From positions 345,210 through 409,209 of the forward strand of contig DJVT01000009.1 in assembly GCA_002441305.1 (NCBI GenBank): a stretch of 64,000 bases of DNA, in the 5' to 3' direction. The DNA is from Candidatus Omnitrophica bacterium UBA6249 (GTDB taxonomy: Bacteria > Omnitrophota > Gorgyraeia > Gygaellales > Profunditerraquicolaceae). Of the stretch, positions 35,163 to 60,180 are shown piece by piece (position 1 is the first letter of the stretch; each line of letters opens with the position of its first letter). The notes below the pieces were generated by a model that had not been told where the DNA came from, did not search any database, and saw nothing but the letters and a program-made list of their open reading frames with translations. The translations under genes and the position numbers were made by a program.

Positions 35163-36349
35163 TACCGGCCCCTCAATCTATTGGAAATCTCTCTCTGTAA
35201 ATCAAGAATGCGTTTATGCCTGTCTTCCTTTTCTTCCTGGGTAAGGGAATCGGCCAGTTTAGAAGACTGCGTATTCGGCCTGGGGGAATATTTGAATATA
35301 TATGAAGCGTTAAACCCGACGTTCTTGAGCAAGGCACAGGTCTCCTGGAAATCCCCCTCTGTTTCTGTGGGGAAACCTACGATAATATCCGTAGTCAATG
35401 TACCCCCTGTAACGATTCTACGATAAGAGTCGGTTAAAGCCAAGTACTCTTTTACGGAGTACCCGCGGTTCATAAGCTTGAGTATCCTGTCCGAACCGGA
35501 TTGCACCGGAAGATGCAGGGATTTCTCCAGCTTCTCCAGGTCCCTGATGGCGCGGAAAAATTCTTCATTGGCGTCTTTAGGGTGGGAGGTGAAAAAATTA
35601 AAACTCTCCAGCCCTTCCAGCGCGTTTACCTCTTCAAGAAGCCCCCTGAAACCGGAATCCCCCTGGCAATAAGCGTTTACATTCTGCCCCAGGAGGGTAA
35701 TCCTGGATATACCCGAACCCAATGCCCGGAGGATCTCCTCTATAACGCTGGACTGCGCGCGGTGGCGCAATGGCCCGCGCACATACGGAACAATACAATA
35801 CGAACAAAAATTTGAACAGCCCTCGGAAATAACCACGTAAGCATGACTCTTGTCCGCGCGGAAAGAAGTATGATAGACCTCATCCGGCCTCTCCTTGGCC
35901 GCAGTCTCCCAGACCTTCCGCTGGAATAACCCCTCATCCTGGCTCTGTCCTAAAGCAAGAAGCCGGTCAAGAATCGAGGGTATTTTGCCGATATCCTGCG
36001 GCCCCACCACAAAAGAAATCGCCGGGTCGCGCTGGAACGCCTTGTCTTGATAATTCTGCGCCATGCACCCGGCCAACCCGATAATCTTACTGCCTTTATA
36101 ACTCCCGATCAGGCTCCAGACACGGTCCTCGGCATGCTTGCGTACGGAGCAAGTATTAAAGATCACGACATCGGCGTCTTGATCGGAATCACAGACCCGG
36201 TAACCGGCACCCTGGAGAAGCCCGCAGATAATCTCGGAATCCCGGACATTCATCTGGCATCCGAAGGTACGCAAAAGCACACGTAGCTTCTTCGGGCTTT
36301 TGCCTCCGGAATCGCCTGTATTGTCGTCTTTTCGTTCGTTTTCAACCAT
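35162..36349 (-). CDS. miaB: tRNA-i6A37 methylthiotransferase MiaB. The 5' end (36278-36349) is supplied by the integrated element.
   Basis: 395 aa with the UPF0004 domain LRTFGCQMN, the radical-SAM CSNFCSYC motif and a TRAM C-terminus. The first 24 codons lie to the element side of the 20-bp att core and overlap the integrase 3' end in another frame. Confidence 0.85.
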   Translation of the reverse strand: MVENERKDDNTGDSGGKSPKKLRVLLRTFGCQMNVRDSEIICGLLQGAGYRVCDSDQDADVVIFNTCSVRKHAEDRVWSLIGSYKGSKIIGLAGCMAQNYQDKAFQRDPAISFVVGPQDIGKIPSILDRLLALGQSQDEGLFQRKVWETAAKERPDEVYHTSFRADKSHAYVVISEGCSNFCSYCIVPYVRGPLRHRAQSSVIEEILRALGSGISRITLLGQNVNAYCQGDSGFRGLLEEVNALEGLESFNFFTSHPKDANEEFFRAIRDLEKLEKSLHLPVQSGSDRILKLMNRGYSVKEYLALTDSYRRIVTGGTLTTDIIVGFPTETEGDFQETCALLKNVGFNASYIFKYSPRPNTQSSKLADSLTQEEKEDRHKRILDLQREISNRLRGR

Positions 36350-37935
36350 TTCATCCCCTCTTCATAGCAAGTCTTCCAAGGCTCATTCAACTCAAACTTC
36401 ACGATTTCCTGATTCTGGATAGTAATCGACTTAAAGACAATCCGCATGAACGTCTTTATAAGGTAGTCCAATTGGTGATTGTCGCTTTCGGGCGTACTGC
36501 GCAACCTTAAAAGGAAATCCTGCGTCGCTTTCACCAAATTGACGGAATTGCGCTTGTCCAGAATCTTAAGATGAATGGCCTTGATATCCTGCTTTAGTTT
36601 TTTCTCCTCATTACTTAAAAGCTCGGCTCTGTCCTTATAAAGCCCCATATTTATTTTGTCTTCTGAAAATAATTCGTATATAGCCCTTTGCTTCTCCACG
36701 TTCTTTTTAAGAAGCGCTTCCTTCTCCTCCAACTGCTCCATATATACCCGCTCCGGCTCAGAAGCGTTAAGCCGAATCATGTCGCCTAATTCTTCCAGCA
36801 CGTGAAGATTTTTTCTAATAACTTCAACGATATCCCAGACCTGCTTATTGATAGCATCAGCAGTCACGGATTTATTGTTGCACTTAATATACCGAATCCC
36901 TCTAGACGAACATCTATACCACGGACGCCTCATTTTGGTGCGGTGATTAACGATATGCGTCATCCCGCGATAATTACCGCCGCATTCATTGCATTTTAAT
37001 ATACCGGAAAGATGATAAACATTATTCCTGAATCTAACTATGCCATTAGTGCGGTTTCGCTTGAGAAGCGTGGAAGCCTCGTCAAACTCCCTTTGCGAAA
37101 TAATCGGCTCGTGCGTATTCGGGACCTCGATGATCTTGGAAGGATCATTCTTGATATAGCAATATCCCTTTCCCTCGCCATTTTTAGTCTTGATCTTTGT
37201 ATCGTAACGCCGCTTATTCCAGACCAGCATTCCCAAATACACTTTATTTTTAAGGATATCCGAGATGAATTTAGTATAAAACTTCCCGCCCTGCCGCGAA
37301 GGGATACCAAGCATGTAATAATGCCCGGCAATCTGCGAAGTGCTCTTGCCATTTATATACATCGAGAAAATTTCTTTGACGATTTTCGCTTCTTCAGGGT
37401 GGACTTCCAGTTTCTTGGCTTCCTTATTATAACGATAGCCATACGGCGCGTAACGCGCTCCCTGCCAATGCCCCCGCTTAACACCTACAACCATACCCGG
37501 AAAAACGCGCTCAACTAAACGATTACGCTCAAATTCCGCGCAACTGCCAAGCATTTGAATCGCCATTTTGCCCGCGCTCGATGTAGTATCAAACGGCTCA
37601 GTCGCTGATTTATAGCCAACACCCAAAGAATCAATCTCCTCAAGCAATCCTAACAGATCCTTGAGCCGACGACTTAAGCGATCTTGTTTATACACCAAGA
37701 CCAAATCAAACTGCTTATTGCGGGCATCGAAGAGAAGCCTCTGTAATGCCGGTCTATCCATATTGCCGCCGGAATAGCCGTCATCCATATAAACATCCCG
37801 GCCCGACATACTGCAAAAAACATCCCAGCCGAAGTTCTTCGCATATTGCAAAAGATACGTTCTCTGCACCTCCAGCGAAAATCCTTCGCGAGCTTGATCC
37901 TCTGTGCTAACTCTTGTGTATAACGCTACCCTCAT
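36250..37935 (-). CDS. Large serine recombinase (integrase 1)
   Basis: 561 aa with the resolvase catalytic domain ALYTRVSTEDQ, a recombinase domain, the zinc ribbon CNECGGNY...CSSRGIRYIKC and a coiled coil. Its last codons cross the att core. Confidence 0.9.
   Translation of the reverse strand: MRVALYTRVSTEDQAREGFSLEVQRTYLLQYAKNFGWDVFCSMSGRDVYMDDGYSGGNMDRPALQRLLFDARNKQFDLVLVYKQDRLSRRLKDLLGLLEEIDSLGVGYKSATEPFDTTSSAGKMAIQMLGSCAEFERNRLVERVFPGMVVGVKRGHWQGARYAPYGYRYNKEAKKLEVHPEEAKIVKEIFSMYINGKSTSQIAGHYYMLGIPSRQGGKFYTKFISDILKNKVYLGMLVWNKRRYDTKIKTKNGEGKGYCYIKNDPSKIIEVPNTHEPIISQREFDEASTLLKRNRTNGIVRFRNNVYHLSGILKCNECGGNYRGMTHIVNHRTKMRRPWYRCSSRGIRYIKCNNKSVTADAINKQVWDIVEVIRKNLHVLEELGDMIRLNASEPERVYMEQLEEKEALLKKNVEKQRAIYELFSEDKINMGLYKDRAELLSNEEKKLKQDIKAIHLKILDKRNSVNLVKATQDFLLRLRSTPESDNHQLDYLIKTFMRIVFKSITIQNQEIVKFELNEPWKTCYEEGMKWLKTNEKTTIQAIPEAKARRSYVCFCVPSDAR
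36258..36277. repeat. att core copy 1 (CATCCGAAGGTACGCAAAAG), the junction between miaB and element 1
   Basis: Identical 20-mer to 54295-54314. It lies inside miaB codons LLRTFGC and inside the last codons of integrase 1. Confidence 0.8.
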
Positions 37936-38113
37936 TAGTATCCTTTAGTGTCTCCCGCCATTCTTTAATCTTGGCGATACACTCGTCCGTAAACACGGGC
38001 CAGTCTTTGTAGTCGCGCTTGGGCTTAACCCAACCCTTGCGGATCCAATTGATCATGGTCTGCCGGTGAACACCCAGCTTTTTTGCCGTCTCTGTCATGG
38101 TGTAAGTTTTCAT
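37907..38113 (-). CDS. Excisionase-type (MerR-like, HTH_17) DNA-binding protein, a candidate recombination directionality factor
   Basis: MKTYTMTETAKKLGVHRQTMINWIRKGW...; 51 of 58 aligned residues are identical to the element 2 copy. Its 3' end overlaps the integrase start by 29 nt. Confidence 0.65.
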   Translation of the reverse strand: MKTYTMTETAKKLGVHRQTMINWIRKGWVKPKRDYKDWPVFTDECIAKIKEWRETLKDTNEGSVIHKS

Positions 38114-38139
38114 AATTGGCACCCTCTAAGATTAGTGCC

Positions 38140-38168
38140 CAGTATACCGTATTATACAACCCTATACA
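38140..38168 (-). promoter_or_regulatory. Promoter candidate for xis-int (conserved in both elements)
   Basis: The minus strand reads TTGTAT (38168-38163), a 17-nt spacer, then TATACT (38145-38140), with an internal TATAAT. The same block recurs near 56705-56735 in element 2. Confidence 0.4.
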
Positions 38169-38365
38169 AGGGTTTTCTTCTCCGCGTCATACGAGGACAG
38201 GAACATTTTTGACAACAACTCAATGCCTTCAAAAAAGGATTTACGCGCCTCCTGAATCTCAATGCTGGATAGGCCGCGGCCTTTTAGCTTTATCTCTAAA
38301 GCATCCCAGCCCCTAAGGCTAACCGCCTGATCATTATTTGTGCGTACATCCTTGCTCATTTTCAC
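38162..38365 (-). CDS. Conserved small element protein, unknown function
   Basis: 67 aa. SLRGWDALEIKLKGRGLSSIEIQEARKSFFEGIELLSKMF aligns with the element 2 ORF at 56734-56928. Confidence 0.55.
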   Translation of the reverse strand: MKMSKDVRTNNDQAVSLRGWDALEIKLKGRGLSSIEIQEARKSFFEGIELLSKMFLSSYDAEKKTLV

Positions 38366-38373
38366 CGCTACCC

Positions 38374-38456
38374 ATTAGGACATTAGGACATTTTTCGTGT
38401 CGTATGATGTCCGGTTTCACTGACATACTGACATAACTCGTGTCAGTGAATGTCAG
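38374..38456. repeat. Short-word arrays upstream of the small ORF (operator/iteron-like)
   Basis: ATTAGGAC occurs twice in tandem (38374-38391). CTGACAT occurs twice (38420, 38428), followed by inverted TGTCAG twice (38441, 38451). Confidence 0.6.
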
Positions 38457-38600
38457 TCAAAACACCCCTCAAAACCATCGAAATACCCCAAAATTGACAC
38501 TTTTTCCGCAAAGAATGCCTGTTTTGAGCCTTCCTGACCACATTTTGACGCTCTCCGGATAACCCCATATGACATGACATCACTTTTTCAAAATTTTAGA

Positions 38601-38712
38601 TCACTGACAAACTGCGCCTCGCCCGACCCTCACCCGACACCGGCTGCCAAGGACCCGTAAACAAAATGCGTGCGGAGGAGGGCGGAAGGTGTCGCCCTCT
38701 GCCAGACGCATT
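38601..38712. repeat. Conserved GC-rich motif copy 1 plus adjacent hairpin
   Basis: TCACTGACA..GCGCCTCGCCCGACCCTC..AAGGACCC (38601-38656), with an invariant 18-mer at 38614-38631. A hairpin AATGCGT...ACGCATT follows at 38665-38712. Confidence 0.8.
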
Positions 38713-38781
38713 TATCTGGCAAAACTTTCGCGATGGAAGAAGTTAACAAGAACATCGATCCGGTTCCTCCGCATTAGATTG

Positions 38782-39465
38782 TTACTCAGCAACCAACTCT
38801 ACCTGCTCCACTGGCTTTGCGGGCTCAGGCCGATATTTTTTCATAAGGTTATTAATCTCCTGCTCGAGGTCGAAATGCGATACCCAGTGATCCCTGACAC
38901 GGATATCCTCCTCGATATCTGCCGTTGTCGGCCTGCGAAGCTCGGCGATACCCTTTTCTTTCTCAGCATGAAAAATACTGTGCGGCTCTGTTCCTAAACT
39001 GGGGCTAAACGCGGGGTAATCTTCCAAATGCCGTCGGGTAGTCTCTGGATGACCGTAGATAGCAAATGCTAAGGCAAACAACCGGCCCTTCGCCTTCCAC
39101 AGATCGAGGATCAACGTCTCCTTCTCTCTGTTCATGGCTTTACGGTCTTCGATGAGCCTTTTCATCTCTTCGTCCCGCTTCTCCGTCAACGCTTCCTCCA
39201 TTTTCGTCTTGAGTTTAGCGAGGCTCTCGGCAACGACATCGAGATTGATATTGCATTCCTCCAACGCCAAATCCGCTAGCTTCACAGCCTCGGGATTAAT
39301 CCTCTCGCCGCACATAACCCGGCTTCTGATTTCTTTTGCTTTCTCTTTAGCTTCAGTTTTTTCCTGCTCGCAGAGCTTCTGCTTTTCTTCAAGCGCCACA
39401 ATCTGCTCGGCGATCTCTTCCGGCGTGCTTTTGCCCTTTAACACGTTTAAAAAATTCAGTTTCAT
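38782..39465 (-). CDS. Coiled-coil hypothetical protein (variable slot of element 1)
   Basis: 227 aa, charged and helical. I recognise no motif. It occupies the position held by the Nu1-like gene in element 2. Confidence 0.5.
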   Translation of the reverse strand: MKLNFLNVLKGKSTPEEIAEQIVALEEKQKLCEQEKTEAKEKAKEIRSRVMCGERINPEAVKLADLALEECNINLDVVAESLAKLKTKMEEALTEKRDEEMKRLIEDRKAMNREKETLILDLWKAKGRLFALAFAIYGHPETTRRHLEDYPAFSPSLGTEPHSIFHAEKEKGIAELRRPTTADIEEDIRVRDHWVSHFDLEQEINNLMKKYRPEPAKPVEQVELVAE

Positions 39466-39559
39466 TTTTCGTTCCTCCTGTATTTGTTGATTTGAATTAC
39501 TATTCTTCTGCCTTGGTTTTTACGTTTGCCTACATCTTTCACCTCCCCTTTTTCTACCC

Positions 39560-39772
39560 TCTGAACGTTGTGAACATTGACTACTCTTATTTTTCTAACT
39601 GCCTCTAATGACCCCCTACAAGGGGCTTTCCCTCTTTCTCTTTTCTTTTTTAGAAAAGGAAAGAAACGACATTCACAATATTCATGAATCCCACATCCTC
39701 TTGTAGATTATGAGGATAATCCGTGACCAAAGCTGTGAACGTAGCCCGTCCACAGTCACAATGGTCACACCT
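39560..39772. repeat. Iteron-like word pairs and an AT-rich tract downstream of primase 1 (replication origin candidate)
   Basis: TGAAC occurs at 39562 and 39571, TTCA(C/T) words at 39671 and 39680, and GTCACA at 39755 and 39764. Each pair is 9 bp apart. An A/T-rich imperfect palindrome lies at 39630-39665. Confidence 0.4.
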
Positions 39773-42136
39773 TTAATACGGCCTTGGATCGTCTTCATCA
39801 CAAAAATCCTTTCCTTGTTCACCTTCATTCACGCCTTCGTTCACACTGCCTTTAAAAAGCGAATTACCCTTTATCCTGCGTAAGATAACCAGCTTCCTGC
39901 CGGTACCGGCTTCACGCTTTTCCGGACGTAAAATATCAATGCCCACACTGCGCATAACCGGAGCGATGCGCATAAGCTCTGAACCAAGTGCCCGGGCGTT
40001 GCCGGGTAGCGTCTTATCAAAACCGGTTTCCGGCTTAATGCTCTCAAGCAGTGTGGTCGCAGAACCCGCCCACTCGCCTCCGTTTGACTCCACAAGATAG
40101 ACCAACTTTTGCGCGAATGTGCTCTCTTCTGCGGTGTCCTCCCATTTATGATCAACCGATTGCTGATACCGCTTAAAAAATTCCTCCCGGGAGAATCCCA
40201 AATGCTGTGACAACGCCGCACCCCACTGCGCGAAATCCGACATCCTAAAACGCTCATGCCCGGACACACCGTCAATAACTGCCATTGCGTTTGAAATTGC
40301 CGAAAAGAAACCGCCGAGAATACCGGGAAGCGAAGCCCGCCATTCGTAAGCGATGACTTTCTCCGGCCTTGTCTCTTTTAAGATTGGTATATCGAAGATA
40401 ACTGAACGGTCTAATAGATCCGGACGGCATATAGCACTGCCGATACCGTTTAAAACGAAACATCGGCGATAGGTCCTGATGAATTCCTCATCATTGGTGT
40501 AAAGCGATCGCTTCATATCTCCCTCGCCTGTTACTGCCCGGCATAAAAAATCACTGAACCACTCAGACACGCGAGAAAAATTGTCGAAATTATTCAACCA
40601 GTGTTTATCCGCGATCATCTGCGCCTGCTCTAAATCCTTAGGCACAGAAATGGACATCACCTTGGAAGGATCGCACAGGCTTTTAATCATCCGGGAGTTG
40701 TTAGACTTTCCTGTTCCCTGCTCGCCTATCTGCACTGGTATGACATGAGGAATATCGGGAATAAAGAAAGTCGCTACCGCCGTCATGAATAGACAAGCGT
40801 CATCTTTATTGATATTGCAAAACTCCAAAAGCTTTTTAGGATCAGAGCCCTTGACCGGAAAAACCTGCTCTGCCTGATGGGGGTATCGCTTGAATATTGG
40901 AGGCAGGAAAACAACTTCCCATCCATCTTTAGTAATAATGACCCCGCGCCAGTCTTGAGTGGTCAGGTCATAATAAATAGCCCCGTTATGCCAACCGACA
41001 CGGTTATATAGCTCAACCTGCCTTCCGCCTTCGCACTTCGCCTCAATCTGAACTTTCGCCTGCTTTATAGCTTCGCTCCCGGGCGGATGGCCGAAGTCCT
41101 GCCGGTAACGCAGAGCGCAGTAATTCCTGAAGCGGGAACTGCTTGTCTGGCAAACCTCAAGATGTTTATCAAACGGAAGAACAACGTAAGGATTACCTTG
41201 TTGGTCGCGCAGATATTCGCTAACCGTTTCTTCACAGTCACGGGTGATAATTTCGCCTTGGGTAAGTTTCTTCTGCTTCGGAGATGTTGACGCCTCAAAT
41301 ACATTTTCGGTGTCTTGGACGGCCTTCTGAATAACGCTTTGCCCGTAAGTCTTGCCGTCACCAAAATGTTTCTCATCCCACTTCGGCCGCATAAGCCCCG
41401 ACTGCCGGAACAACGCATCCATCTGCCCGGCGTCTTTGCTTGTCCAAAACGCCAGCTTGTTGCACAACGCCAGATCCGCCTCACTTTGAGAGGGATAATC
41501 GGTCTGCCACTGGCCCGAATAAAGCCGCTGAAACCTCTCCGCGTCTTTACTCTTGGCGATCAAGGTAAGAATGTCGTCTGCGGGCCCTTTATCCACAAAC
41601 CGGCTGAATATATCTTTAAGCGCATCAGTGCACTCGTTAAGCTCAGCCGGATAATTTTCAAGGCGGTTGCCGGTAACGGTAAAGAATCGGCCATTGGTAT
41701 AAATCTCCAAGCCGATCTTGGAAATTTTGCAGGCCCGGGCGATCTCGCCTTTACAAAGGATATGAATACCTGTGCCGCTTGGCGAATATTCGGAATATGA
41801 ATTAATCGCCTTGAGAATCTCAACCGCATACGGCGCGATTGATCCGTCTTTGACGCAGTGGTCAATATCCACGCCCACATACGGCGGCTGAAACATAAAG
41901 CCAATGCCCGCGTAGTTACGCTGAATCGCCAAATCTAAAGCCATTTCAAAATCAGTCCATGTTGCAGGATCGTTGCTTTTCGCAGGCGCGCCGGTCATAA
42001 CATTCATCGGAATCTTGTCAACACGGCCATTGTTCTCTCTGGTGACATAACCCACCCACGCCTTTTGAGACCTAATCTCGGCGGGAATAATTGAAGGCAT
42101 CTTGTTAAAATCTATCATTGCTGTTTGCATCGCCAC
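39773..42136 (-). CDS. Prim-Pol (AEP) primase fused to a DUF3987-like P-loop helicase
   Basis: 787 aa with the N-terminal AEP motifs VGVDIDHC and SPSGTGIHIL, and the PriCT-like block YPSQSEADLALCNKLAFWT...LFRQSGLMRPKW. The Walker A motif is GEQGTGKS. Confidence 0.8.
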   Translation of the reverse strand: MAMQTAMIDFNKMPSIIPAEIRSQKAWVGYVTRENNGRVDKIPMNVMTGAPAKSNDPATWTDFEMALDLAIQRNYAGIGFMFQPPYVGVDIDHCVKDGSIAPYAVEILKAINSYSEYSPSGTGIHILCKGEIARACKISKIGLEIYTNGRFFTVTGNRLENYPAELNECTDALKDIFSRFVDKGPADDILTLIAKSKDAERFQRLYSGQWQTDYPSQSEADLALCNKLAFWTSKDAGQMDALFRQSGLMRPKWDEKHFGDGKTYGQSVIQKAVQDTENVFEASTSPKQKKLTQGEIITRDCEETVSEYLRDQQGNPYVVLPFDKHLEVCQTSSSRFRNYCALRYRQDFGHPPGSEAIKQAKVQIEAKCEGGRQVELYNRVGWHNGAIYYDLTTQDWRGVIITKDGWEVVFLPPIFKRYPHQAEQVFPVKGSDPKKLLEFCNINKDDACLFMTAVATFFIPDIPHVIPVQIGEQGTGKSNNSRMIKSLCDPSKVMSISVPKDLEQAQMIADKHWLNNFDNFSRVSEWFSDFLCRAVTGEGDMKRSLYTNDEEFIRTYRRCFVLNGIGSAICRPDLLDRSVIFDIPILKETRPEKVIAYEWRASLPGILGGFFSAISNAMAVIDGVSGHERFRMSDFAQWGAALSQHLGFSREEFFKRYQQSVDHKWEDTAEESTFAQKLVYLVESNGGEWAGSATTLLESIKPETGFDKTLPGNARALGSELMRIAPVMRSVGIDILRPEKREAGTGRKLVILRRIKGNSLFKGSVNEGVNEGEQGKDFCDEDDPRPY

Positions 42137-42351
42137 GTCCGTATTTGGTTAAGTATTGCCCGGAGTTTACTGTCGTTATATGGCACGCGACAGGTATAAA
42201 GCCACATCTCGACCTCTGAGGCGCGAAACATAACTTCCCCGCTTGGTAGCCTAAAATGCGGGATAAGCCAATTCTTCACCAGATAGTCAATCTGGCTCCG
42301 CCTTAGATTGAGATGAGTCATAAGCCGTTCAACAGTCAATAAGCCTTCCAT
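42115..42351 (-). CDS. AlpA/excisionase-family HTH regulator
   Basis: 78 aa. LLTVERLMTHLNLRRSQIDYLVKNWLIPHFRLPSGEVMFRASEVEMWL matches the HTH_17 pattern. It overlaps the primase start by 22 nt. Confidence 0.6.
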   Translation of the reverse strand: MEGLLTVERLMTHLNLRRSQIDYLVKNWLIPHFRLPSGEVMFRASEVEMWLYTCRVPYNDSKLRAILNQIRTWRCKQQ

Positions 42352-42460
42352 GTGATATCCTCCTCGCGAATTTCTTTTCTACTTGGAGTTTATCACTGGA
42401 AAAATCATGCCTTCCCAGCTTTACCCAAATTTGCTCAAATTTTTACATTGATTGTGCGTA

Positions 42461-42488
42461 AAAAAGAAAAAACGCCCTAAGGCGTTTT
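42461..42488 (-). terminator. Rho-independent terminator after the 203-aa gene
   Basis: The minus strand has the stem AAAACGCC / GGCGTTTT with a 4-nt loop, followed by a T-run. Confidence 0.7.
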
Positions 42489-42522
42489 AGTGGGAATTAC
42501 TGCTATTTTTGTTTTGGAAATA

Positions 42523-43134
42523 CTACTGAGAGGAGTCTTGATCGTCAGCGGTAGGAAGTTCTTCGGCGGCGATCTGCCATTTGCTTCCGATCTTGCGGGC
42601 TAATAACTGATTATTCTCAAGCCAGTTTTGCATGGTCTTACGGCTGATATTAAAAACCTTGGCCCAATGCGTGATTGGATACGGGCTTGACCAGCCGCTA
42701 CGCGGGATTAATTTCGGTCTTATTCTAAACTCAGAAGACATTATCCTGTTTCTTGCACCCATAATACGGTGCATCATCCCAAGTTGCATATCTTTCGTCT
42801 TTTCACACCATTCATTGTAGCCTCCGGGAAGCCACGTTGGAAGCTCAGGGATAACCGGTGTTTCATTCGGCCCGAATAGATATTCTATAATGGGGATAGC
42901 CGCTTGATTGGCTTCCTGATAAAGATTTCCCAAGTCAGGCTTTTTTACTTTATGCTTCTTTAGCGTTTTCTCATACTTGTGGAATACATCATCTTTTGTC
43001 AGCCAATCATAGGAATCGATTGATGAAAGACCGAGCCTTTCAATAGTCAACACCCACTCACTGGAGGCCTTCTCATACGCTGACCACTTTTTCCAGAACT
43101 CCGTAACGCAATCGAGTTTATTCTTTTTATCCAC
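42523..43134 (-). CDS. Conserved 203-aa element protein with C-terminal excisionase-type HTH
   Basis: It aligns along its whole length with 60633-61244 of element 2. The C-terminus reads ITHWAKVFNISRKTMQNWLENNQLLARKIGSKWQI. Confidence 0.7.
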   Translation of the reverse strand: MDKKNKLDCVTEFWKKWSAYEKASSEWVLTIERLGLSSIDSYDWLTKDDVFHKYEKTLKKHKVKKPDLGNLYQEANQAAIPIIEYLFGPNETPVIPELPTWLPGGYNEWCEKTKDMQLGMMHRIMGARNRIMSSEFRIRPKLIPRSGWSSPYPITHWAKVFNISRKTMQNWLENNQLLARKIGSKWQIAAEELPTADDQDSSQ

Positions 43135-43179: not shown

Positions 43180-43395
43180 TTAATCAATACGTAAAGTGCT
43201 GTCCTTAAAAATATTTTTTTCTTCATTCTGGTTCAGTTTTCTAAAAACAAATAGGTGTTCATGCATGATTAAAAGGAAATCCTTGTCCTGCGCGCTCCAG
43301 TATCTGGTAGTCGAACAATTGTGTTGTACTTTTATAACATCTTCTTTGAGTAGGAATCCGGCTTTTAAGAAGCGTCGCATAACAGAAAATGCCAA
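43180..43395 (-). CDS. Hypothetical 71-aa ORF (weak)
   Basis: An ORF with no motif in AT-rich DNA. An equally long antisense ORF overlaps it. Confidence 0.25.
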   Translation of the reverse strand: MAFSVMRRFLKAGFLLKEDVIKVQHNCSTTRYWSAQDKDFLLIMHEHLFVFRKLNQNEEKNIFKDSTLRID

Positions 43396-43462
43396 CGGAA
43401 CATAATGCCTGCGTCGGCGAGTATCTCCGATGAGGATGGCGCAATATTGAAGGCCAATTTAC

Positions 43463-43681
43463 TCAGTCAGCTTTTTCTATATCTTTTTCCTCCTCTGAAA
43501 CACGATTATCTTCACCGCATTGAATAGACAGGACAAGCGGCCCCTTTGCAAAATTCATACAAATTACACCCTGCGAGTCAACAACACCGTTTATATCGGT
43601 ATCTTCCGATAACTGCCAGCCACTATTTTTTAATGTGGCTAATATTTTCTTCGCCTCTTGAATATGATTTTTATCGAGCAT
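43463..43681 (-). CDS. Small hypothetical protein translationally coupled to the DpnI-like gene
   Basis: 72 aa from the internal ATG (MLDKNHIQEAKKILATLKNSGWQL...). It overlaps the DpnI-like stop by 11 nt. Confidence 0.4.
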   Translation of the reverse strand: MLDKNHIQEAKKILATLKNSGWQLSEDTDINGVVDSQGVICMNFAKGPLVLSIQCGEDNRVSEEEKDIEKAD

Positions 43682-44468
43682 TTTCTTCCTTATGCTCCAA
43701 CGGCGTAAGCCGATACTTGCCACGACCGATGAATTCCAAATACCCTTTATCACGTAAAATTTGCAATTGCTGCCTGATCTTATCCTTGATGTGTTTATTG
43801 CCAGGATAAGCTCTCTTTAATTCCTCTTCAAATTTATAAACATCATCTAACAAAAAGTCTTTTTTGTCTAAACGGTCGATGCATTTCATAACCGTTAATG
43901 TCCACCCTCTCGATTCAGATCGGGAAGATTCCCTTAAAAATAGAGTCCTCCGCCATTCAGCCGACACCTTGTCTTTTGGCGAAACCTGATGATCACGTAT
44001 AAAATATATCTTCCCGGCCTCAGGGATAGAACGAAGCAGAATATTGCAACCAACCCAATGGCTCCGCCTAGCCTCAGGTGAGAGCGGTTTTCTCATCTCA
44101 ATAATATCGGCCGTAAAAAAATGTTTTGGGATTACCAAAAAATTTACAACCGCCCATGATGTAATCGAATAATTCAAAAAGAAAAAATTTGGATTATTTA
44201 GATCTTTTAGTCGCTCGAGCATCGTCTCATAAGCGCCATCGACTACTTTATCTCCGATTTTGTCTTTTTTGCTCTTTAACTCAAATTCCTCTCTACAACT
44301 TAGGCAAAAGAAATCCGCGACAGGCCTGCTATTCGGAAATTGCCTAAGAGAAAGCCCACAATTGGGACAATATATCTCTCGCTCAACCCAGTTCTCGGTA
44401 AGAACTCTGGCCTTCTGAGAAGGACTTTTGTATGCCGCCGATAGGCGCTGATCAAGATCGAGGTTCAT
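43671..44468 (-). CDS. DpnI-like methyl-directed type IIM restriction endonuclease (Dam-replacing family)
   Basis: 265 aa that aligns throughout, from memory, with S. pneumoniae DpnI. Shared blocks are SQKAR.LTE.WV....YCPNCG, NRPVADF.C..C.EEFELKSKK, NPNFFFL, SRGWT and NHIK.KIRQQLQILRDK...F.GRGKYR. Confidence 0.85.
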   Translation of the reverse strand: MNLDLDQRLSAAYKSPSQKARVLTENWVEREIYCPNCGLSLRQFPNSRPVADFFCLSCREEFELKSKKDKIGDKVVDGAYETMLERLKDLNNPNFFFLNYSITSWAVVNFLVIPKHFFTADIIEMRKPLSPEARRSHWVGCNILLRSIPEAGKIYFIRDHQVSPKDKVSAEWRRTLFLRESSRSESRGWTLTVMKCIDRLDKKDFLLDDVYKFEEELKRAYPGNKHIKDKIRQQLQILRDKGYLEFIGRGKYRLTPLEHKEENAR

Positions 44469-44622
44469 ATTGGATAGCCGTAGCCAGTCTCCTTAAAACC
44501 GAATAAATATGATCACAATCCTCACCGGCTTCTAGCCAGTTTTTCTTTTCATCATCCCAGCAATAATCCAAGACACGCCTAATATCATCTTCCACCTGCT
44601 CATTCATTATTATTGATCGCAT
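44452..44622 (-). CDS. Possible 56-aa ORF overlapping the DpnI-like start (below the ORF-track cutoff)
   Basis: My own translation is MRSIIMNEQVEDDIRRVLDYCWDDEKKNWLEAGEDCDHIYSVLRRLATAIQYEPRS. Its stop lies 17 nt inside the DpnI-like gene. Confidence 0.3.
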   Translation of the reverse strand: MRSIIMNEQVEDDIRRVLDYCWDDEKKNWLEAGEDCDHIYSVLRRLATAIQYEPRS

Positions 44623-44634: not shown

Positions 44635-45768
44635 TCACCTTTTTTCTTTTGATGCCGAAGAATCTTTTAATGCCCGCTCAATTTCTTTAATTGTCGGCAA
44701 ACTTGATTTCAATTCCTTAGGTAATGCCCGTGTAATTTGATATTCAGACACCCCGATGGCTTTGGTTACGCCTTTCAAAGCATATTCGGCAATAATCTGA
44801 TTCTTATCCTGACACAGGATAAGTCCTATCGTTGGCCTATCTTGTTCATGACAAAGTTGGGCGTCTACCACATTACAATAAAAATTCATTTTTCCCGCGT
44901 ATTCTGGTTTAAATGGCCCCCGCTTGAGATCTACGACAATGAAGCACCGCAAACGCAAGTGGTAAAATAAAAGATCCAGATAAAATTCTTTCGCGCCTAT
45001 GTTCAAGAGATACTGTCGGCCTACAAATGCAAAGCCCTGCCCTAACTCAAGGAGGAATTTCTCAACGTGTGCGAGAAGGCCCAACTCAAGTTCTCGCTCA
45101 TGAAAAGGTTCCGATAAAGTAAGAAAGTCAAAGATATACGGGTCCTTTAAACTTTGCTCTGCAAGATCCGATTGAGCTGGCGGCAATGTCCGCGAGAAGT
45201 TATGAATCACTTTTCCAGAACTTCGATGAGCTGCTGATTTAATCATTGCGCTCAATCTATCGCGACTCCAGCCCTGTTCTATCGTCTGCTGCATATACCA
45301 CAATCTATCATCAAGATCACTTACTTTCTCCATGAGAAGCACATTATGAAACCATGGCAATTTTGCAGCAACCTGCTGCAAAATTAAAGAATGCTTCTGA
45401 CGAGCTTTATTTTTTGCAGCACCCTGCTGCATAATTAACGGCTTCCCATATTCCCGGGCAAAGCGAATCATATACCCAATATTTCTCTCCGAAAAACCCT
45501 TTACCTCTGGCATTTCATTCCGAATATCCCTGGCTAATTTAGGAATAATTGCCGCGCCCCAACCAGCTCTTGCTTGACGTTCAATAATGGCCCGTCCGAT
45601 ATCCCAATAAAGGACAACCATTTCATTATTGACAGCGAACGTGGCTTTAACTTGTGCCGACCGAATACGCTCTTTCACCGCTTTTAAAAAAACAGGATAG
45701 TCGGAAGGCAACCCTGATAACTTTTTAACAGATAGTGAATTACTTGATGGCGACATCTTTTTTGTCAT
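44635..45768 (-). CDS. DUF1016 / YhcG family PD-(D/E)XK nuclease-domain protein
   Basis: 377 aa with the typical YhcG N-terminus (..RIRSAQVKATFAVNNEMVVLYWDIGRAI...). The C-terminal nuclease core reads YLDLLFYHLRLRCFIVVDLK. Confidence 0.8.
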   Translation of the reverse strand: MTKKMSPSSNSLSVKKLSGLPSDYPVFLKAVKERIRSAQVKATFAVNNEMVVLYWDIGRAIIERQARAGWGAAIIPKLARDIRNEMPEVKGFSERNIGYMIRFAREYGKPLIMQQGAAKNKARQKHSLILQQVAAKLPWFHNVLLMEKVSDLDDRLWYMQQTIEQGWSRDRLSAMIKSAAHRSSGKVIHNFSRTLPPAQSDLAEQSLKDPYIFDFLTLSEPFHERELELGLLAHVEKFLLELGQGFAFVGRQYLLNIGAKEFYLDLLFYHLRLRCFIVVDLKRGPFKPEYAGKMNFYCNVVDAQLCHEQDRPTIGLILCQDKNQIIAEYALKGVTKAIGVSEYQITRALPKELKSSLPTIKEIERALKDSSASKEKR

Positions 45769-46397
45769 AAATCATCCTCTAAATTAGGAATCGTATGGAC
45801 TACTACTCCCTGAGCCTGAAAATCATTTCCCGCCACAATAGGTTTATGATTTTTATTCGTCGACCGTGGTTTTAATACCACCGTATGGGCAGAAGCCGAA
45901 TATTCTTTGATTGTAACCTCATTATCGACTAAAGCAACGATCGCCTCTCCGTTTTCGGCGGTTCGTTGTTTCTTAACCAGAATAAAATCCCCATCGTTAA
46001 TTCCTTTTTTATTCATAGAATCACCCTTGGCGCGCAAAAGGAAGTATTTATGCGGAGGTTTAGCGAGTTTCGTTGAGACAGGAAATACAGCTTGAATATT
46101 CTCTTCAGCAAAAATCGGCATTCCACATGGGGCCGTACCCACCAAAGGGATATCAATCGTTTGAATATTAGCCTTATCCTCAAAATCCCGGACGATTTGT
46201 AAAGATCCGATCGGGCTCCTACGAAGAATACCCTTCGAGATGAGTTTATTAACTAACAGAGAAGCAGATCGAGGTGAGCGGTATCCCAGCGTCTTCATCA
46301 AATCGCGCAATGAAGGACATCGACCAAAATTAATTATCGAGCTTCTTATTTCTTTTAGGGCAATATTTTCTTTATCTGAAAGCGTTAATGTTCTCAT
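45765..46397 (-). CDS. LexA-like repressor (winged-helix plus S24 peptidase)
   Basis: It has a LexA-type DNA-binding N-terminus (PSLRDLMKTLGYRSPRSASLLVNKL) and an S24 core (GDSMNKKGINDGDFILVKK, catalytic Ser/Lys context). I use the ATG at 46397. It has a 4-nt overlap with the DUF1016 gene. Confidence 0.8.
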   Translation of the reverse strand: MRTLTLSDKENIALKEIRSSIINFGRCPSLRDLMKTLGYRSPRSASLLVNKLISKGILRRSPIGSLQIVRDFEDKANIQTIDIPLVGTAPCGMPIFAEENIQAVFPVSTKLAKPPHKYFLLRAKGDSMNKKGINDGDFILVKKQRTAENGEAIVALVDNEVTIKEYSASAHTVVLKPRSTNKNHKPIVAGNDFQAQGVVVHTIPNLEDDL

Positions 46398-46414
46398 GTA
46401 TACAATTGTATACA
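46397..46414. promoter_or_regulatory. Perfect 18-bp palindrome abutting the lexA-like start (operator candidate)
   Basis: TGTATACAATTGTATACA is two self-complementary TGTATACA octamers joined by AT. It has an SOS-box-like TGT...ACA periphery. Confidence 0.6.
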
Positions 46415-46687
46415 ATATGAATAAGAAGTCAATGATTTTTTGCGAATTTTATAAGACAAATGTCAGTAGTGCCAAATGTCCATTTGCCAGCAAATATTAA
46501 ATTCTCGTGGGCATTTTCATGTCCATCCATGTCCATCAAAATGCCCTTTTTCGGCCTTCCCGGGAGTCCCTAAAACACCCCTAAAATCGCCTATTTCCCG
46601 TCGCTGGACGCTCATTTTGGCCGGGTTGACCACTTATGCCCAAACCCCAAAAGTGATGGACATGGACATCGATTTTTTTAACCACTA

Positions 46688-56110: not shown

Positions 56111-56138
56111 TCTGAGGCCCCGCAGGGGCCGAAGAATC
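56106..56138. repeat. Solo copy of the same repeat family between xis2 and int2
   Basis: GTCATTCTGAGGCCCCGCAGGGGCCGAAGAATC. It is absent from the homologous xis1/int1 junction, where the two genes overlap. Confidence 0.8.
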
Positions 56139-56314
56139 TAATCTTTCAAAGTCCCCCGCCATTCTTTAATCTTCTTAATACACTCATCCGTAAACACCGG
56201 CCAATCCCTGTAATCGCGCTTCGGTTTGATCCAGCCTTTACGCACCCAATGGATCATAGTCTGGCGATGCACCCCTAAAATCTTTGCCGTCTCTGTCATC
56301 GTGTATGTCTTCAT
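56138..56314 (-). CDS. Excisionase-type HTH protein, RDF candidate (element 2 copy)
   Basis: MKTYTMTETAKILGVHRQTMIHWVRKGW...; 51 of 58 residues are identical to the element 1 copy. Confidence 0.65.
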   Translation of the reverse strand: MKTYTMTETAKILGVHRQTMIHWVRKGWIKPKRDYRDWPVFTDECIKKIKEWRGTLKD

Positions 56315-56323
56315 AAGCAAGTT

Positions 56324-56360
56324 GTCATCCTGACCCTGAACGAAGTGAAGGGGAAGGATC
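56324..56360. repeat. Repeat family copy on the 3' side of the GIY-YIG gene
   Basis: GTCATCCTGACCCTGAACGAAGTGAAGGGGAAGGATC. It ends at the GIY-YIG stop codon. Confidence 0.8.
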
Positions 56361-56653: not shown

Positions 56654-56658
56654 CTTCA

Positions 56659-56693
56659 GATCCTTCGGTCGGCTTCGCCTCCCTCAGGATGAC
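56659..56693. repeat. Repeat family copy on the 5' side of the GIY-YIG gene, inverted relative to 56324-56360
   Basis: GATCCTTCGGTCGGCTTCGCCTCCCTCAGGATGAC, which is the reverse complement of GTCATCCTGAGGGAGGCGAAGCCGACCGAAGGATC. Confidence 0.8.
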
Positions 56694-56733
56694 GTGCCGT
56701 TCATTGAAGGCCAGTATACCTCATTATACAACC

Positions 56734-57790: not shown

Positions 57791-57899
57791 TGCCCTCAGG
57801 CGACGGAAAACGCGCGTCCACCCAGAATCCCGGTTTCCATTTCTTCTTTTTCTTTTTTCTATACCAGTTGTAGTAATACATTTCTTATTCTCCCTTTCC

Positions 57900-60176: not shown

Positions 60177-60180
60177 TTCT

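What the first reader, a model, noticed from the sequence alone, without database searches (positions are those of the whole stretch)
43463..44622. A DpnI-like methyl-directed restriction enzyme is carried as element cargo, sandwiched between two overlapping mini-ORFs
The 265-aa protein matches DpnI, the G(m6A)TC-dependent type IIM enzyme, along its whole length as I recall that sequence. It includes the CPNCG zinc motif, the FELKSKK catalytic region and the C-terminal winged-helix block IRQQLQILRDK. No methyltransferase lies adjacent, which is expected for a methyl-dependent enzyme. This implies that the host does not Dam-methylate its DNA, and that the element protects the host against Dam-modified phages or plasmids. 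The gene is translationally overlapped on both sides. A possible 56-aa ORF lies upstream, with its stop 17 nt inside the DpnI-like gene. A 72-aa ORF lies downstream, with an 11-nt overlap. Neither is recognisable, and they could be regulators or partners.
Basis: partly seen in the sequence, partly recalled or inferred. Interest (0 to 1): 0.6.

Follow-up and report, generated by a model that had tools for sequence, protein, structure and literature searches.

The report
DpnI-type restriction gene on integrative element
This is a genuine relative of DpnI, the enzyme that cuts only Dam-methylated GATC DNA, carried in the swappable defence region of a mobile element in an uncultured Omnitrophota bacterium; the gene itself is ordinary, but the small gene in front of it is a conserved, undescribed partner.

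Summary
Gene 43671-44468(-) encodes a full-length DpnI orthologue (Pfam DpnI 7e-76 and DpnI_C 1e-33; PDB 4ESJ 6e-89; PADLOC mREase_II 1.5e-114). All published catalytic, zinc-binding and methyl-pocket residues are kept except N48, which is Ser.

It is the fourth gene of a tightly packed minus-strand run: LexA-like repressor, YhcG/DUF1016 nuclease (PADLOC candidate PDC-S02), orf56, dpnI, orf72. The run lies in the variable cargo region of an integrative element with a large serine recombinase and a primase-polymerase, inserted in the 5' end of a MiaB-family gene. The host is a Candidatus Omnitrophota MAG.

The two mini-ORFs differ in standing. orf56 is real: homologues sit directly upstream of dpnI in at least 15 distinct loci, and 106 cluster representatives form a family with no Pfam or PHROG model. 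It models as a confident helical hairpin. orf72 occurs only in this lineage and one 90%-identical relative.

"No methyltransferase adjacent" needs amending. A dead 3' remnant of a methyltransferase gene starts right after the orf72 stop, and relatives keep 5' Dam fragments upstream, so the cassette probably displaced a GATC restriction-modification system.

Whether the host lacks Dam could not be tested. This is a known kind of enzyme, of modest interest.

The parts
43671..44468 (-). [quoted passage not shown]
   Evidence: Family hits: PF06044 7.4e-76 and PF17726 9.8e-34; 4esj_A 6.4e-89; PADLOC mREase_II 1.5e-114. The published functional residues E25, D53, E64, K66, the four Cys, Q18, R126, L129, R135, W138, G140, K229 and R231 align to identical residues here. 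The one exception is N48, which is Ser47.
44452..44622 (-). orf56, a small conserved partner gene; its stop lies 17 nt inside dpnI
   Evidence: Homologues lie immediately upstream of dpnI, or overlap its start, in L011, L015, L017, L019, L023, L024, L025, L030, L031, L032, L035, L037, L038, L040 and L049. dN/dS against L011 is 0.10. The profile search finds 106 cluster representatives. The AlphaFold2 model has pLDDT 88 and shows helices 8-32 and 39-49. No Pfam, NCBIfam, PHROG, PADLOC or PDB match.
43463..43681 (-). orf72, a lineage-specific small ORF overlapping the dpnI stop by 11 nt
   Evidence: An AAGGAAG Shine-Dalgarno-like motif lies 4-5 nt before its ATG, inside the dpnI tail. Homologues occur only in identical loci and in L011-L014 (83% aa identity, dN/dS 0.24). 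It is absent from all other dpnI loci. The structural model is poor (pLDDT 56) and finds no match.
43237..43455 (-). dead 3' remnant of an N6_N4-type DNA methyltransferase gene (ORF 43180..43395 plus an upstream in-frame stretch)
   Evidence: It matches the end of PADLOC MTase_II (positions 195-249 of 249) at E=5.2e-13. It is 51-53% identical to residues 172-244 of 244 of a Fusobacterium MTase that lies two genes downstream of a DpnII-family endonuclease. The similarity begins right after the orf72 stop. The SAM-binding and catalytic motifs are missing. L011 lacks the remnant.
44635..45768 (-). YhcG/DUF1016 PD-(D/E)XK nuclease, 377 aa, second gene of the operon
   Evidence: PF06250 1.8e-64 and PF17761 2.9e-39. 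PADLOC candidate system PDC-S02, E=6e-143. Its start overlaps the stop of the LexA-like gene by 4 nt.
45765..46397 (-). LexA-like repressor (winged-helix DNA-binding domain plus S24 self-cleaving peptidase), first gene of the operon
   Evidence: TIGR00498 lexA scores 137.6 bits against a cutoff of 110.95. PF00717 and PF01726 also hit. The 210-aa ATG start follows the gene calls. The gene is 100% identical over the part held in L004, whose element backbone is diverged.
46397..46432 (-). promoter-like site (TTGACT, 16 nt, TACAAT) overlapped by a perfect 18-bp palindrome, TGTATACAATTGTATACA, that abuts the ATG; a putative operator, possibly with a leaderless mRNA
   Evidence: (one copy in the window; 0.01 expected by chance). 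The sequence is identical in L011, and a similar TGTATA repeat precedes the LexA-like gene of L024.
36250..43134 (-). backbone of element A: large serine recombinase (36250..37935), 227-aa ORF, NrS-1-type primase-polymerase (39773..42136), and two HTH_17 proteins (42115..42351, 42523..43134)
   Evidence: Pfam hits. Element B is a 70-78% identical paralogue in the same gene order.
36249..36277 (-). left junction of element A, inside the conserved RTFGCQMN codons of a MiaB-family radical-SAM gene; the element supplies a new N-terminus to that gene
   Evidence: Identity to L004 ends at ...CTTCGGATGCCAGATGAA, after which the flanks are only about 65% alike. The same 20-mer recurs only at 54295-54314, at the end of element B.
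54230..63981 (-). element B, in tandem: serine recombinase, MerR-like protein, primase/D5 helicase, HTH_17/ANT protein, then a Dsr1-like defence gene in the position that the dpnI operon holds in element A
   Evidence: The 917-aa ORF matches PADLOC Dsr1 at 3.4e-85 and is cut by the window end.

Best explanation
The 265-aa protein is an orthologue of R.DpnI, a monomeric type IIM restriction endonuclease. Two domains (a PD-(D/E)XK catalytic domain with a Cys4 zinc site, and a winged helix) each read fully methylated G(m6A)TC, and the enzyme cuts within that site.

It sits in a five-gene minus-strand run: a LexA-like repressor, a YhcG/DUF1016 nuclease, orf56, dpnI and orf72. The run is read from a promoter overlapped by an 18-bp palindrome. 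It occupies the variable defence-cargo slot of an integrative element (large serine recombinase plus primase-polymerase). That element is inserted in the 5' end of a MiaB-family gene of a Candidatus Omnitrophota bacterium.

Shown here:
- family membership and intact functional residues;
- the gene order and overlaps;
- the left end of the element;
- exchange of the cargo block between diverged elements;
- conservation of orf56 with dpnI;
- the methyltransferase remnant.

Inferred:
- The enzyme destroys incoming Dam-methylated phage or plasmid DNA.
- Host and element DNA (more than 260 GATC sites in the window) must be unmethylated at GATC.
- The LexA-like protein represses the run through the palindrome and releases it on DNA damage.
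- orf56, translationally coupled to dpnI, is an accessory or regulatory partner of the nuclease.
- The orf56-dpnI(-orf72) cassette arrived by displacing a GATC-methylating, DpnII/MboI-like restriction-modification system. That displacement would have left a 3' methyltransferase stub here and 5' Dam stubs in related loci.
For: Identity.

Operon-like packing: a 4-nt overlap between the LexA-like gene and yhcG, a 12-nt gap, then 17-nt and 11-nt overlaps. No terminator-like site appears on the minus strand before 42488.

Element:
- recombinase and primase domains;
- a junction inside the MiaB-family N-terminal codons, and a second related element in tandem;
- GC 0.40-0.42 against 0.49 in the host part;
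- element B carries Dsr1 in the same slot;
- the block 43000-45928 is 100% identical to L004, while the adjacent primase gene falls to 55-70% identity.

orf56 as partner. In P0139 and P0143 the orf56 domain is fused to the DpnD/PcfM domain, and in P0143 also to a PLD nuclease.

Displacement of an R-M system: a methyltransferase 3' remnant, and Dam 5' fragments upstream of relatives L015, L022, L025 and L040, all cut at the same point.

Link to a LexA/S24 protein: LexA-like genes lie upstream in L022 and L024, an S24 gene lies upstream in L038, and the closest relatives P0008, P0011 and P0014 carry a C-terminal S24 domain.

Host.
Against: - No activity or methylation data exist. The host's Dam status was not testable.
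- The right end of element A (attR) is not in the window, so the extent 36.25-54.3 kb rests on the tandem-array reading.
- The palindrome occurs only once in the window, and its binding by the LexA-like protein is assumed.
- orf56 relatives also occur without dpnI (L026, L039 and phage contigs L041-L043). Some dpnI loci lack it (L022 and L045-L048). It is therefore not an obligate or exclusive partner.
- N48, which contacts the proximal guanine in DpnI, is Ser here.
- L004 may be a second copy in the same genome, in a paralogous MiaB-family gene, rather than a copy in a different host.
Confidence: 0.8

Rival explanations
1. The mini-ORFs are not genes. They are chance or junction ORFs called because they overlap a real gene.
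For: orf72 has homologues only in this lineage and in one lineage that is about 90% identical at the nucleotide level. With 23 substitutions over 72 codons, an open frame could survive by chance. Its dN/dS of 0.24 rests on few sites. It ends exactly at the junction with the methyltransferase remnant. Its structural model is poor.
Against: For orf56 this rival is rejected. Its protein sequence is conserved at 37-78% identity across loci in which DpnI is 54-73% identical. It stays in the same position throughout. dS is saturated while dN is about 0.25. The family has 106 cluster representatives, and the model is confident. For orf72, three points argue for a real gene: an AAGGAAG ribosome-binding motif lies at the right distance, differences are biased to third codon positions, and the ORF is retained in L011, where the neighbouring remnant has been deleted.
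Confidence: 0.25
2. The dpnI run is ordinary host chromosome (the host's own lexA operon), not element cargo. The recombinase-primase genes merely lie next to it.
For: The LexA-like protein passes the NCBIfam lexA equivalog cutoff. In L024 a 59% identical LexA-like gene followed by orf56 and dpnI lies beside purA, with no element genes seen. attR was not found in the window.
Against: The block is 100% identical in L004, next to a diverged element backbone and a different MiaB-family flank. It lies between the end of element A and the identical 20-mer end of element B. Its GC is 0.40-0.42 against 0.49 in the housekeeping part. The sister element carries a different defence gene, Dsr1, in the same slot.
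Confidence: 0.1
3. The enzyme serves a self-directed, damage-triggered function rather than constitutive defence. In this reading the host or element DNA is GATC-methylated, the LexA-like repressor keeps both nucleases silent, and DNA damage or infection unleashes them in an abortive-infection-like way.
For: A LexA-like or S24 module recurs with this DpnI clade in three architectures: a separate upstream gene, an upstream S24 gene, and a C-terminal fusion. The putative operator overlaps the promoter.
Against: Leaky expression of a DpnI-type enzyme would be lethal with one GATC per 220-270 bp. Many DpnI homologues have no LexA or S24 neighbour. No intact methyltransferase is in the window, and the only methyltransferase trace is a dead stub.
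Confidence: 0.07
4. The nuclease is used offensively or for nutrition. In this reading an ultra-small, possibly host-dependent bacterium degrades Dam-methylated DNA of other bacteria for nucleotides.
For: The host is Omnitrophota, and most close homologues (60-64% identity) come from Patescibacteria/CPR MAGs. A paper on Patescibacteria notes the suggestion that epibionts may use R-M enzymes to source nucleotides (PMC12455944).
Against: There is no export signal and no secretion gene in the run. The neighbours are typical defence-island genes: PDC-S02, Dsr1, and in relatives AbiEii, SLFN/AlbA_2 and toxin-antitoxin pairs.
Confidence: 0.05

Closest known systems
R.DpnI of Streptococcus pneumoniae (dpnC; PDB 4ESJ/4KYW), type IIM
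   Same: It aligns over the full length at E=6e-89 with the same two-domain layout. The catalytic E/D/E-x-K residues, the two CXXC zinc motifs, the methyl-binding cleft (L129, R135, W138, G140) and the winged-helix K-I-R are all kept. It has no cognate methyltransferase.
   Different: In pneumococcus the cassette is chromosomal, is exchanged with the DpnII cassette by transformation, and carries dpnD downstream (recalled from Lacks et al. 1986, not re-read here). Here the gene rides on a serine-recombinase element, follows a LexA-like repressor and a YhcG nuclease, and has orf56 upstream and an unrelated orf72 downstream. Neither mini-ORF matches PF14207 DpnD/PcfM. N48 is Ser.
Neisseria drg (dam-replacing gene, NmeBII)
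   Same: It belongs to the same Pfam family, PF06044. drg has low GC relative to its genome (40.5% against 52% in N. gonorrhoeae, PMC4269198 abstract), as this block does here (0.40-0.42 against 0.49). It carries traces of a displaced GATC methylation system: a methyltransferase 3' stub here and Dam 5' stubs in L015, L022, L025 and L040.
   Different: drg sits at the leuS/dam locus of the chromosome, not on an integrative element. The stub in this window is of the N6_N4 (DpnA/M2-like) class, not the Dam D12 class. No small upstream partner gene turned up for drg in the papers consulted.
C-protein-controlled type II restriction-modification operons
   Same: A small ORF lies immediately upstream of the endonuclease gene and overlaps it, which suggests coupled or timed expression.
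   Different: orf56 has no helix-turn-helix. It models as a two-helix hairpin and matches no C-protein or HTH family. There is no methyltransferase whose action would need a head start.
Defence islands on integrative elements with variable cargo slots
   Same: Two sister elements share a backbone at 70-78% identity. In the same slot they carry different defence genes: dpnI plus PDC-S02 in one, Dsr1 in the other. The cargo block is identical across diverged backbones.
   Different: The backbone (large serine recombinase, NrS-1-type primase-polymerase, insertion into the RTFGCQMN codons of a MiaB-family gene with N-terminus replacement) was not matched to a named element family here.

Membership tests
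DpnI / Dam-replacing family (PF06044 + PF17726), type IIM | N-terminal catalytic domain scores above the Pfam gathering threshold over its full length | tested here: met
   PF06044 scores 254.3 bits against a cutoff of 26.7, covering profile positions 1-182 of 183.
DpnI / Dam-replacing family (PF06044 + PF17726), type IIM | C-terminal winged-helix domain, including the DNA-contact residues K229 and R231 | tested here: met
   PF17726 scores 115.8 bits against a cutoff of 23. The K-I-R of KDKIRQQLQILRDK aligns with DpnI K229-I-R231.
DpnI / Dam-replacing family (PF06044 + PF17726), type IIM | PD-(D/E)XK catalytic residues E25, D53, E64 and K66 | tested here: met
   E25, D52, E63 and K65 of the window protein align to them (residues named in PMC3424567).
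DpnI / Dam-replacing family (PF06044 + PF17726), type IIM | Cys4 zinc site formed by two CXXC motifs | tested here: met
   C34-P-N-C37 and C55-L-S-C58 lie in the published positions relative to E25, D53 and E64.
DpnI / Dam-replacing family (PF06044 + PF17726), type IIM | methyl-binding cleft (L129, R135, W138, G140) and base contacts (Q18, N48, R126) | tested here: met
   L129, R135, W138, G140, Q18 and R126 are identical. N48 is replaced by Ser47.
DpnI / Dam-replacing family (PF06044 + PF17726), type IIM | cleavage that depends on G(m6A)TC methylation | not testable with these tools
   This needs enzyme assays on Dam-methylated and unmethylated DNA.
DpnI / Dam-replacing family (PF06044 + PF17726), type IIM | the host lacks GATC adenine methylation | tested here: inconclusive
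   No intact DNA methyltransferase was found among the window ORFs scanned; two minus-strand ORFs of 110 aa or more (1031 aa and 115 aa) and the overlapping plus-strand ORFs were not scanned. Only a dead stub is present. The rest of the genome could not be read, and GATC observed/expected of 0.83-1.11 says nothing either way.
Pneumococcal DpnI cassette (dpnC + dpnD) | a DpnD/PcfM (PF14207) gene accompanies the endonuclease | tested here: not met
   orf56 and orf72 give no PF14207 hit even at E<=1. The only link is indirect: the orf56 domain is fused to PF14207 in P0139 and P0143.
dam-replacing (drg-type) locus | the endonuclease gene occupies the place of a dam gene, with dam remains or dam flanks | tested here: inconclusive
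   The window has no Dam (PF02086) fragment. It does have a 3' stub of an N6_N4 methyltransferase directly after the cassette. Dam 5' fragments are present in relatives L015, L022, L025 and L040.
Controller (C) protein of R-M systems, considered for orf56 | a small helix-turn-helix DNA-binding protein upstream of the endonuclease gene | tested here: not met
   The position fits, but no HTH family hit was found. The model is a two-helix hairpin with no significant PDB match.
LexA (TIGR00498), considered for the first gene of the run | full-length match above the equivalog cutoff, with DNA-binding and S24 domains | tested here: met
   137.6 bits against a cutoff of 110.95. PF01726 and PF00717 also hit. 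Self-cleavage and operator binding were not testable.
Integrative element with a large serine recombinase | Resolvase, Recombinase and Zn_ribbon_recom domains, and defined junctions with the target | tested here: inconclusive
   All three domains are present. The left junction is mapped. The right junction lies outside the window.

The most novel reading that the evidence does not exclude
orf56 would found an undescribed family of about 50-aa helical-hairpin proteins with the motif DIxxxLDYLWxDExxHYxE...HIFxxLxRL. These would act as dedicated partners of DpnI-type methyl-directed nucleases, as timers, inhibitors or cofactors. Together with a LexA/S24 module they would make methyl-directed restriction responsive to DNA damage or infection. 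The cassette's stubs of Dam and DpnA-like genes would serve as homology arms, letting it overwrite resident GATC-methylating systems when it enters a new host.
Probability: 0.25. Interest if true: 0.55.

Novelty: new member of a known kind. Interest (0 to 1): 0.35.

Why it matters
The enzyme is a textbook type, so its presence adds little by itself. Four things are useful.

1. It is a clear case of a methyl-directed restriction gene moving as a swappable block between diverged integrative elements in Omnitrophota, a phylum with no cultured genetics.
2. It shows that this DpnI clade usually travels with a conserved, uncharacterised small gene, and often with a LexA/S24 module. This points to unstudied control of an enzyme that would be lethal in the wrong methylation background.
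3. The dead methyltransferase stubs document repeated switches from GATC-methylating to GATC-methyl-cutting systems. That is the same switch known from pneumococcus and Neisseria, here in distant phyla.
4. It predicts that this organism and its element are GATC-unmethylated, which long-read metagenomes can check.

Tried and rejected
- Rfam scan of 36-64 kb at E<=0.1 found nothing.
- PHROGs on 47 orf56-family members gave no hit. NCBIfam gave nothing for the DpnI homologue, YhcG or either mini-ORF.
- PDB sequence search with the orf56 profile and with orf72 gave no meaningful hit. Foldseek against the PDB gave E=6.8 for orf56, and for orf72 nothing better than E=1.5 on a low-confidence model.
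- An apparent HicA-like look of orf72 (alpha then three beta strands, 'LKNSGW') is not supported. There was no Pfam hit at E<=1. The HicAB chain ranked 4th with E=2.2 and probability 0.11.
- orf72 against the 63-67-aa downstream ORF family of other dpnI loci gave no alignment.
- The afdb50 fold library was unavailable.
- The search for related loci with the 47-sequence alignment failed for lack of a conserved stretch. A 9-sequence alignment worked.
- P0139 (DpnD plus orf56 domain) against plasmids, meant to reach PcfM, found no match.
- The literature search for dpnD gave nothing on its function.
- GATC frequency as a proxy for methylation status was uninformative.
- A third copy of the element-end 20-mer, or a MiaB 5' remnant that would mark attR, was not found in the window.
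- The ten contigs encoding the identical DpnI protein are identical at the nucleotide level in dpnI and about 300 nt to either side, bar one substitution in L010, so they give no evidence on selection.
Full report
**1. The observation**

- dpnI is 43671..44468(-), 265 aa.
- orf56 is 44452..44622(-). Its stop lies 17 nt inside dpnI.
- orf72 is 43463..43681(-). Its ATG lies 11 nt before the dpnI stop.

An AAGGAAG motif lies 4-5 nt upstream of the orf72 ATG.

**2. The 265-aa protein**

It hits Pfam DpnI (PF06044, E=7.4e-76, full profile) and DpnI_C (PF17726, E=9.8e-34). It also hits PADLOC mREase_II (E=1.5e-114) and the crystallised pneumococcal R.DpnI (4esj, E=6.4e-89, residues 3-253 aligned to 6-255).

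The structural papers name the functional residues. PMC3424567 gives catalytic E25, D53, E64 and K66, with four Cys holding zinc. PMC4117772 gives the following:
- base contacts Q18, N48 and R126;
- the methyl cleft L129, R135 and W138, with G140 backing W138;
- winged-helix residues K229 and R231.

In the alignment every one of these is identical in the window protein (E25, C34, C37, D52, C55, C58, E63, K65, Q18, R126, L129, R135, W138, G140, K230, R232). The single exception is N48, which is Ser47. On sequence grounds this is a DpnI orthologue expected to read G(m6A)TC. Activity itself is not testable here.

**3. Immediate surroundings**

On the minus strand the order is as follows.
- A LexA-like gene, 45765..46397. 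It scores 137.6 bits on TIGR00498 lexA, above the cutoff, and has S24 and LexA DNA-binding domains.
- A YhcG/DUF1016 PD-(D/E)XK nuclease, 44635..45768, overlapping the LexA-like gene by 4 nt. It matches PADLOC candidate defence system PDC-S02 at E=6e-143.
- After a 12-nt gap, orf56, then dpnI, then orf72.

The scan found no terminator-like site on this strand until 42488, after the next gene.

Upstream of the LexA-like gene is a promoter-like site, TTGACT, 16 nt, TACAAT. A perfect 18-bp palindrome, TGTATACAATTGTATACA (46397-46414), overlaps the -10 hexamer and ends on the A of the ATG. This would fit an autoregulated, possibly leaderless transcript. The same sequence is present in the diverged locus L011. 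A similar TGTATA repeat precedes the LexA-like gene of the Planctomycetales locus L024. That the five genes form one LexA-controlled transcript is inference.

**4. A methyltransferase remnant**

The 71-aa ORF 43180..43395(-) matches the last 55 positions of PADLOC MTase_II (E=5.2e-13). Read in frame, the similarity runs upstream to within a few nt of the orf72 stop.

By tblastn, 43237-43449 is 53% identical to residues 172-244 of 244 of an N6_N4 methyltransferase in Fusobacterium vincentii (E=2e-20). In that genome the methyltransferase lies two genes downstream of a DpnII-family endonuclease (PF04556, E=4.7e-109).

The SAM-binding and catalytic parts are absent from the window, so the stub is dead. 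L011 has lost it but keeps orf72. It misses a trace showing that the cassette displaced a methyltransferase gene.

**5. Is it element cargo?**

Downstream of the run lie two HTH_17 proteins, an NrS-1-type primase-polymerase, a 227-aa ORF and a large serine recombinase with Resolvase, Recombinase and zinc-ribbon domains.

Alignment with L004 shows near-identity up to ...CTTTTGCGTACCTTCGGATGCCAGATGAA and about 65% beyond it. L004 carries the same cargo next to a different MiaB-family radical-SAM gene. The junction therefore lies inside the conserved RTFGCQMN codons of a MiaB-family gene, and the element supplies that gene with a new N-terminus.

The 20-mer CTTTTGCGTACCTTCGGATG recurs only at 54295-54314, at the recombinase end of a second element. 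That second element, B (54230 onward), has the same gene order at 70-78% identity. No MiaB 5' remnant lies in the window. The simplest reading is a tandem array, B then A, with A spanning about 36.25-54.3 kb. attR lies beyond the window, so this extent is inferred.

Four further points support cargo status.
- GC is 0.40-0.42 around the run against about 0.49 in the housekeeping part, which holds rpoD, dnaG, dnaK, miaA and other core genes.
- Element B carries a Dsr1-like gene in the equivalent slot (E=3.4e-85).
- The block 43000-45928 is 100% identical between the window and L004, while identity falls through 95-82% to 55-70% inside the primase gene. The defence block has therefore been exchanged between diverged backbones. 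L004 could be another host or a second copy in a paralogous gene of the same genome.
- Relatives of this dpnI lie among AbiEii, SLFN/AlbA_2 ATPases, SNase-DUF1016 and toxin-antitoxin genes.

The host is a Candidatus Omnitrophota MAG, by the names attached to its MiaA cluster.

**6. orf56**

The word-indexed search found only near-identical copies and one 76-78% relative. Contexts of DpnI relatives then showed a 50-58-aa ORF in the same place, usually overlapping the dpnI start by 4-20 nt.

A profile search over 1.84 billion representatives found 106 proteins at E<=1e-3. They share the motif DIxxxLDYLWxDExxHYxE, then five or six residues, then HIFxxLxRL. E25 and H38 are invariant.

Loci fetched through this motif alone, from genomes and metagenomes, mostly have dpnI directly downstream: L023 (Omnitrophota), L024 and L025 (Planctomycetales), L030, L031, L032, L035, L037, L038 and L040. 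DpnI identity in these loci goes down to 54%.

Among loci chosen through DpnI only:
- L011, L017, L019 and L049 have an orf56 homologue upstream;
- the contig of P0007 has a 51-aa ORF there, but its DNA could not be read;
- L022 and L045-L048 have none.

Selection is visible. dN/dS is 0.10 against L011. Among distant members dN is about 0.25 while dS is saturated.

The AlphaFold2 model is confident (pLDDT 88) and shows a helical hairpin, helices 8-32 and 39-49. It has no significant PDB neighbour. Net charge is not conserved, with pI 4.6 here and 9.4 in L017 and L023, so a DNA-mimic role is unlikely.

The family is not exclusive to dpnI.
- In L026 (Gottesmanbacteria) it precedes a 119-aa ORF that looks, by eye only, like a DUF2958-type protein.
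- In phage contigs L041-L043 it lies among what look, by eye only, like DNA-metabolism genes.
- In P0139 and P0143 it is fused to the DpnD/PcfM domain (PF14207), and in P0143 also to a PLD nuclease.

DpnD is the unexplained second gene of the pneumococcal DpnI cassette (recalled from the literature). The fusion therefore ties orf56 indirectly to the same functional neighbourhood.

The most likely role is an accessory or regulatory partner whose translation is coupled to dpnI. The mechanism is unknown.

**7. orf72**

Homologues exist only in identical loci and in L011-L014, at 83% aa identity. dN/dS is 0.24, with differences at codon positions 1, 2 and 3 numbering 9, 4 and 10.

Other dpnI loci carry other things downstream:
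- a conserved but unrelated 63-67-aa ORF in L023 and L045-L048;
- a 60-aa ORF in L049;
- a zinc-ribbon ORF in L017;
- a fused S24 domain in the closest relatives.

orf72 is probably a real but lineage-specific gene. It has a good ribosome-binding motif and is kept where the stub was lost. There is no evidence for its function.

**8. Traces of a displaced GATC system, and the LexA/S24 link**

In L015, L022, L025 and L040 a 38-50-aa N-terminal fragment of a Dam-type methyltransferase (PF02086) lies just upstream of orf56 or dpnI. All four fragments are cut at the same point, after FEPFLGGGA. Differences between them are mostly at third codon positions.

The window carries the complementary trace, a 3' stub of a second-type methyltransferase. 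An M1, R, M2 arrangement (recalled for MboI-like systems, not tested here) that lost its middle would leave exactly these two stubs.

LexA-like or S24 proteins recur with this clade in three forms: upstream genes in the window, L022, L024 and L038, and C-terminal fusions in P0008, P0011 and P0014. This suggests regulated use of the nuclease, but it is only an association.

**9. What could not be settled**

Whether the host lacks Dam remains open. No intact methyltransferase is in the 64 kb read, among the ORFs scanned. GATC is neither avoided nor enriched, with observed/expected of 0.83 in the host part and 0.95 and 1.11 in the two elements. There are 136 + 81 + 50 GATC sites. With that many sites, an active DpnI implies unmethylated GATC, but this is inference from the known biochemistry of DpnI.

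**10. Verdict**

This is a sound observation of a known kind of enzyme: a DpnI orthologue, correctly read as mobile-element cargo without a working methyltransferase.

The added value lies in the context:
- the LexA-like and YhcG genes ahead of it;
- the conserved orf56 partner family;
- the methyltransferase stub;
- the block exchange between elements.

Interest is modest, and higher only if orf56 or the S24 link proves to control methyl-directed restriction.

Noticed in passing
window 54230-63981 (-): A second, related integrative element (B) lies in tandem with element A, at 70-78% nt identity and in the same gene order. It carries a Dsr1-like defence gene (917-aa ORF, cut by the window end) in the slot where element A has the dpnI run.
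   Followed up: partly
window 38599-38659, 46686-46746, 57686-57746: A 61-nt repeat with the core GCGCCTCGCCCGACCCTC occurs three times: once in each element between the recombinase and primase genes, and once about 270 nt upstream of the LexA-like promoter. It has no Rfam match and its function is unknown.
   Followed up: no
P0008, P0011, P0014 (L017 8001-9317; L018); truncated in P0010 (L019): The closest non-identical relatives of this DpnI (66-73% identity) carry a C-terminal Peptidase_S24 (LexA/UmuD-like) domain fused to the nuclease. I did not find this architecture described. DpnI is a monomer, and S24 domains both dimerise and self-cleave.
   Followed up: partly
L015 852-1019; L022 289-444; L025 2356-2562; L040 ~850-1000: N-terminal fragments of a Dam-type methyltransferase (about 40-50 aa, ending just after the FEPFLGGGA SAM-loop motif) lie upstream of orf56 or dpnI in four diverged loci. 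All share the same truncation point, and their differences are mostly at third codon positions. They may be relics of one dam-replacement event that are still under selection, or homology arms.
   Followed up: partly
L023 4882-5085; L045-L047 ~3276-3467; L048 3277-3468: A different conserved small ORF (63-67 aa, motif ARLKxMCRGYSEDLxNFTELVW) follows dpnI directly in Omnitrophota, Nealsonbacteria and Bipolaricaulota loci. It is unrelated to orf72.
   Followed up: partly
L041 3001-3177; L043 2971-3147 (IMG/VR contigs); P0139, P0143: Members of the orf56 family occur in phage contigs, between a small ORF and a larger ORF that looks, by eye only, like a 5'-3' exonuclease. They also occur fused to the DpnD/PcfM domain, and in P0143 to a PLD-type nuclease as well. 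The family has no Pfam or PHROG model.
   Followed up: partly
window 36249-36349 (-): The end of the element overlaps the recombinase stop and encodes a replacement N-terminus (...LLRTFGCQMN) for the MiaB-family radical-SAM gene it interrupts. Element B keeps the same mimic, although no MiaB-family gene follows it.
   Followed up: partly
window 46912-54175 (-): A low-GC stretch (0.38-0.42) encodes Rnk/GreA-like and PhoU-like proteins, three response regulators, a histidine kinase, a DUF2179 protein and a Na+/H+ exchanger. It lies between the dpnI run and element B. On the tandem-array reading it is further cargo of element A.
   Followed up: no
L024 3147-4979; L022 1-1253: A LexA-like gene (59-60% identical to the window's) precedes orf56 and dpnI, or a Dam stub and dpnI, in a Planctomycetales MAG and in an unassigned metagenomic contig (L022). 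The pairing of LexA with dpnI is therefore older than this element.
   Followed up: partly
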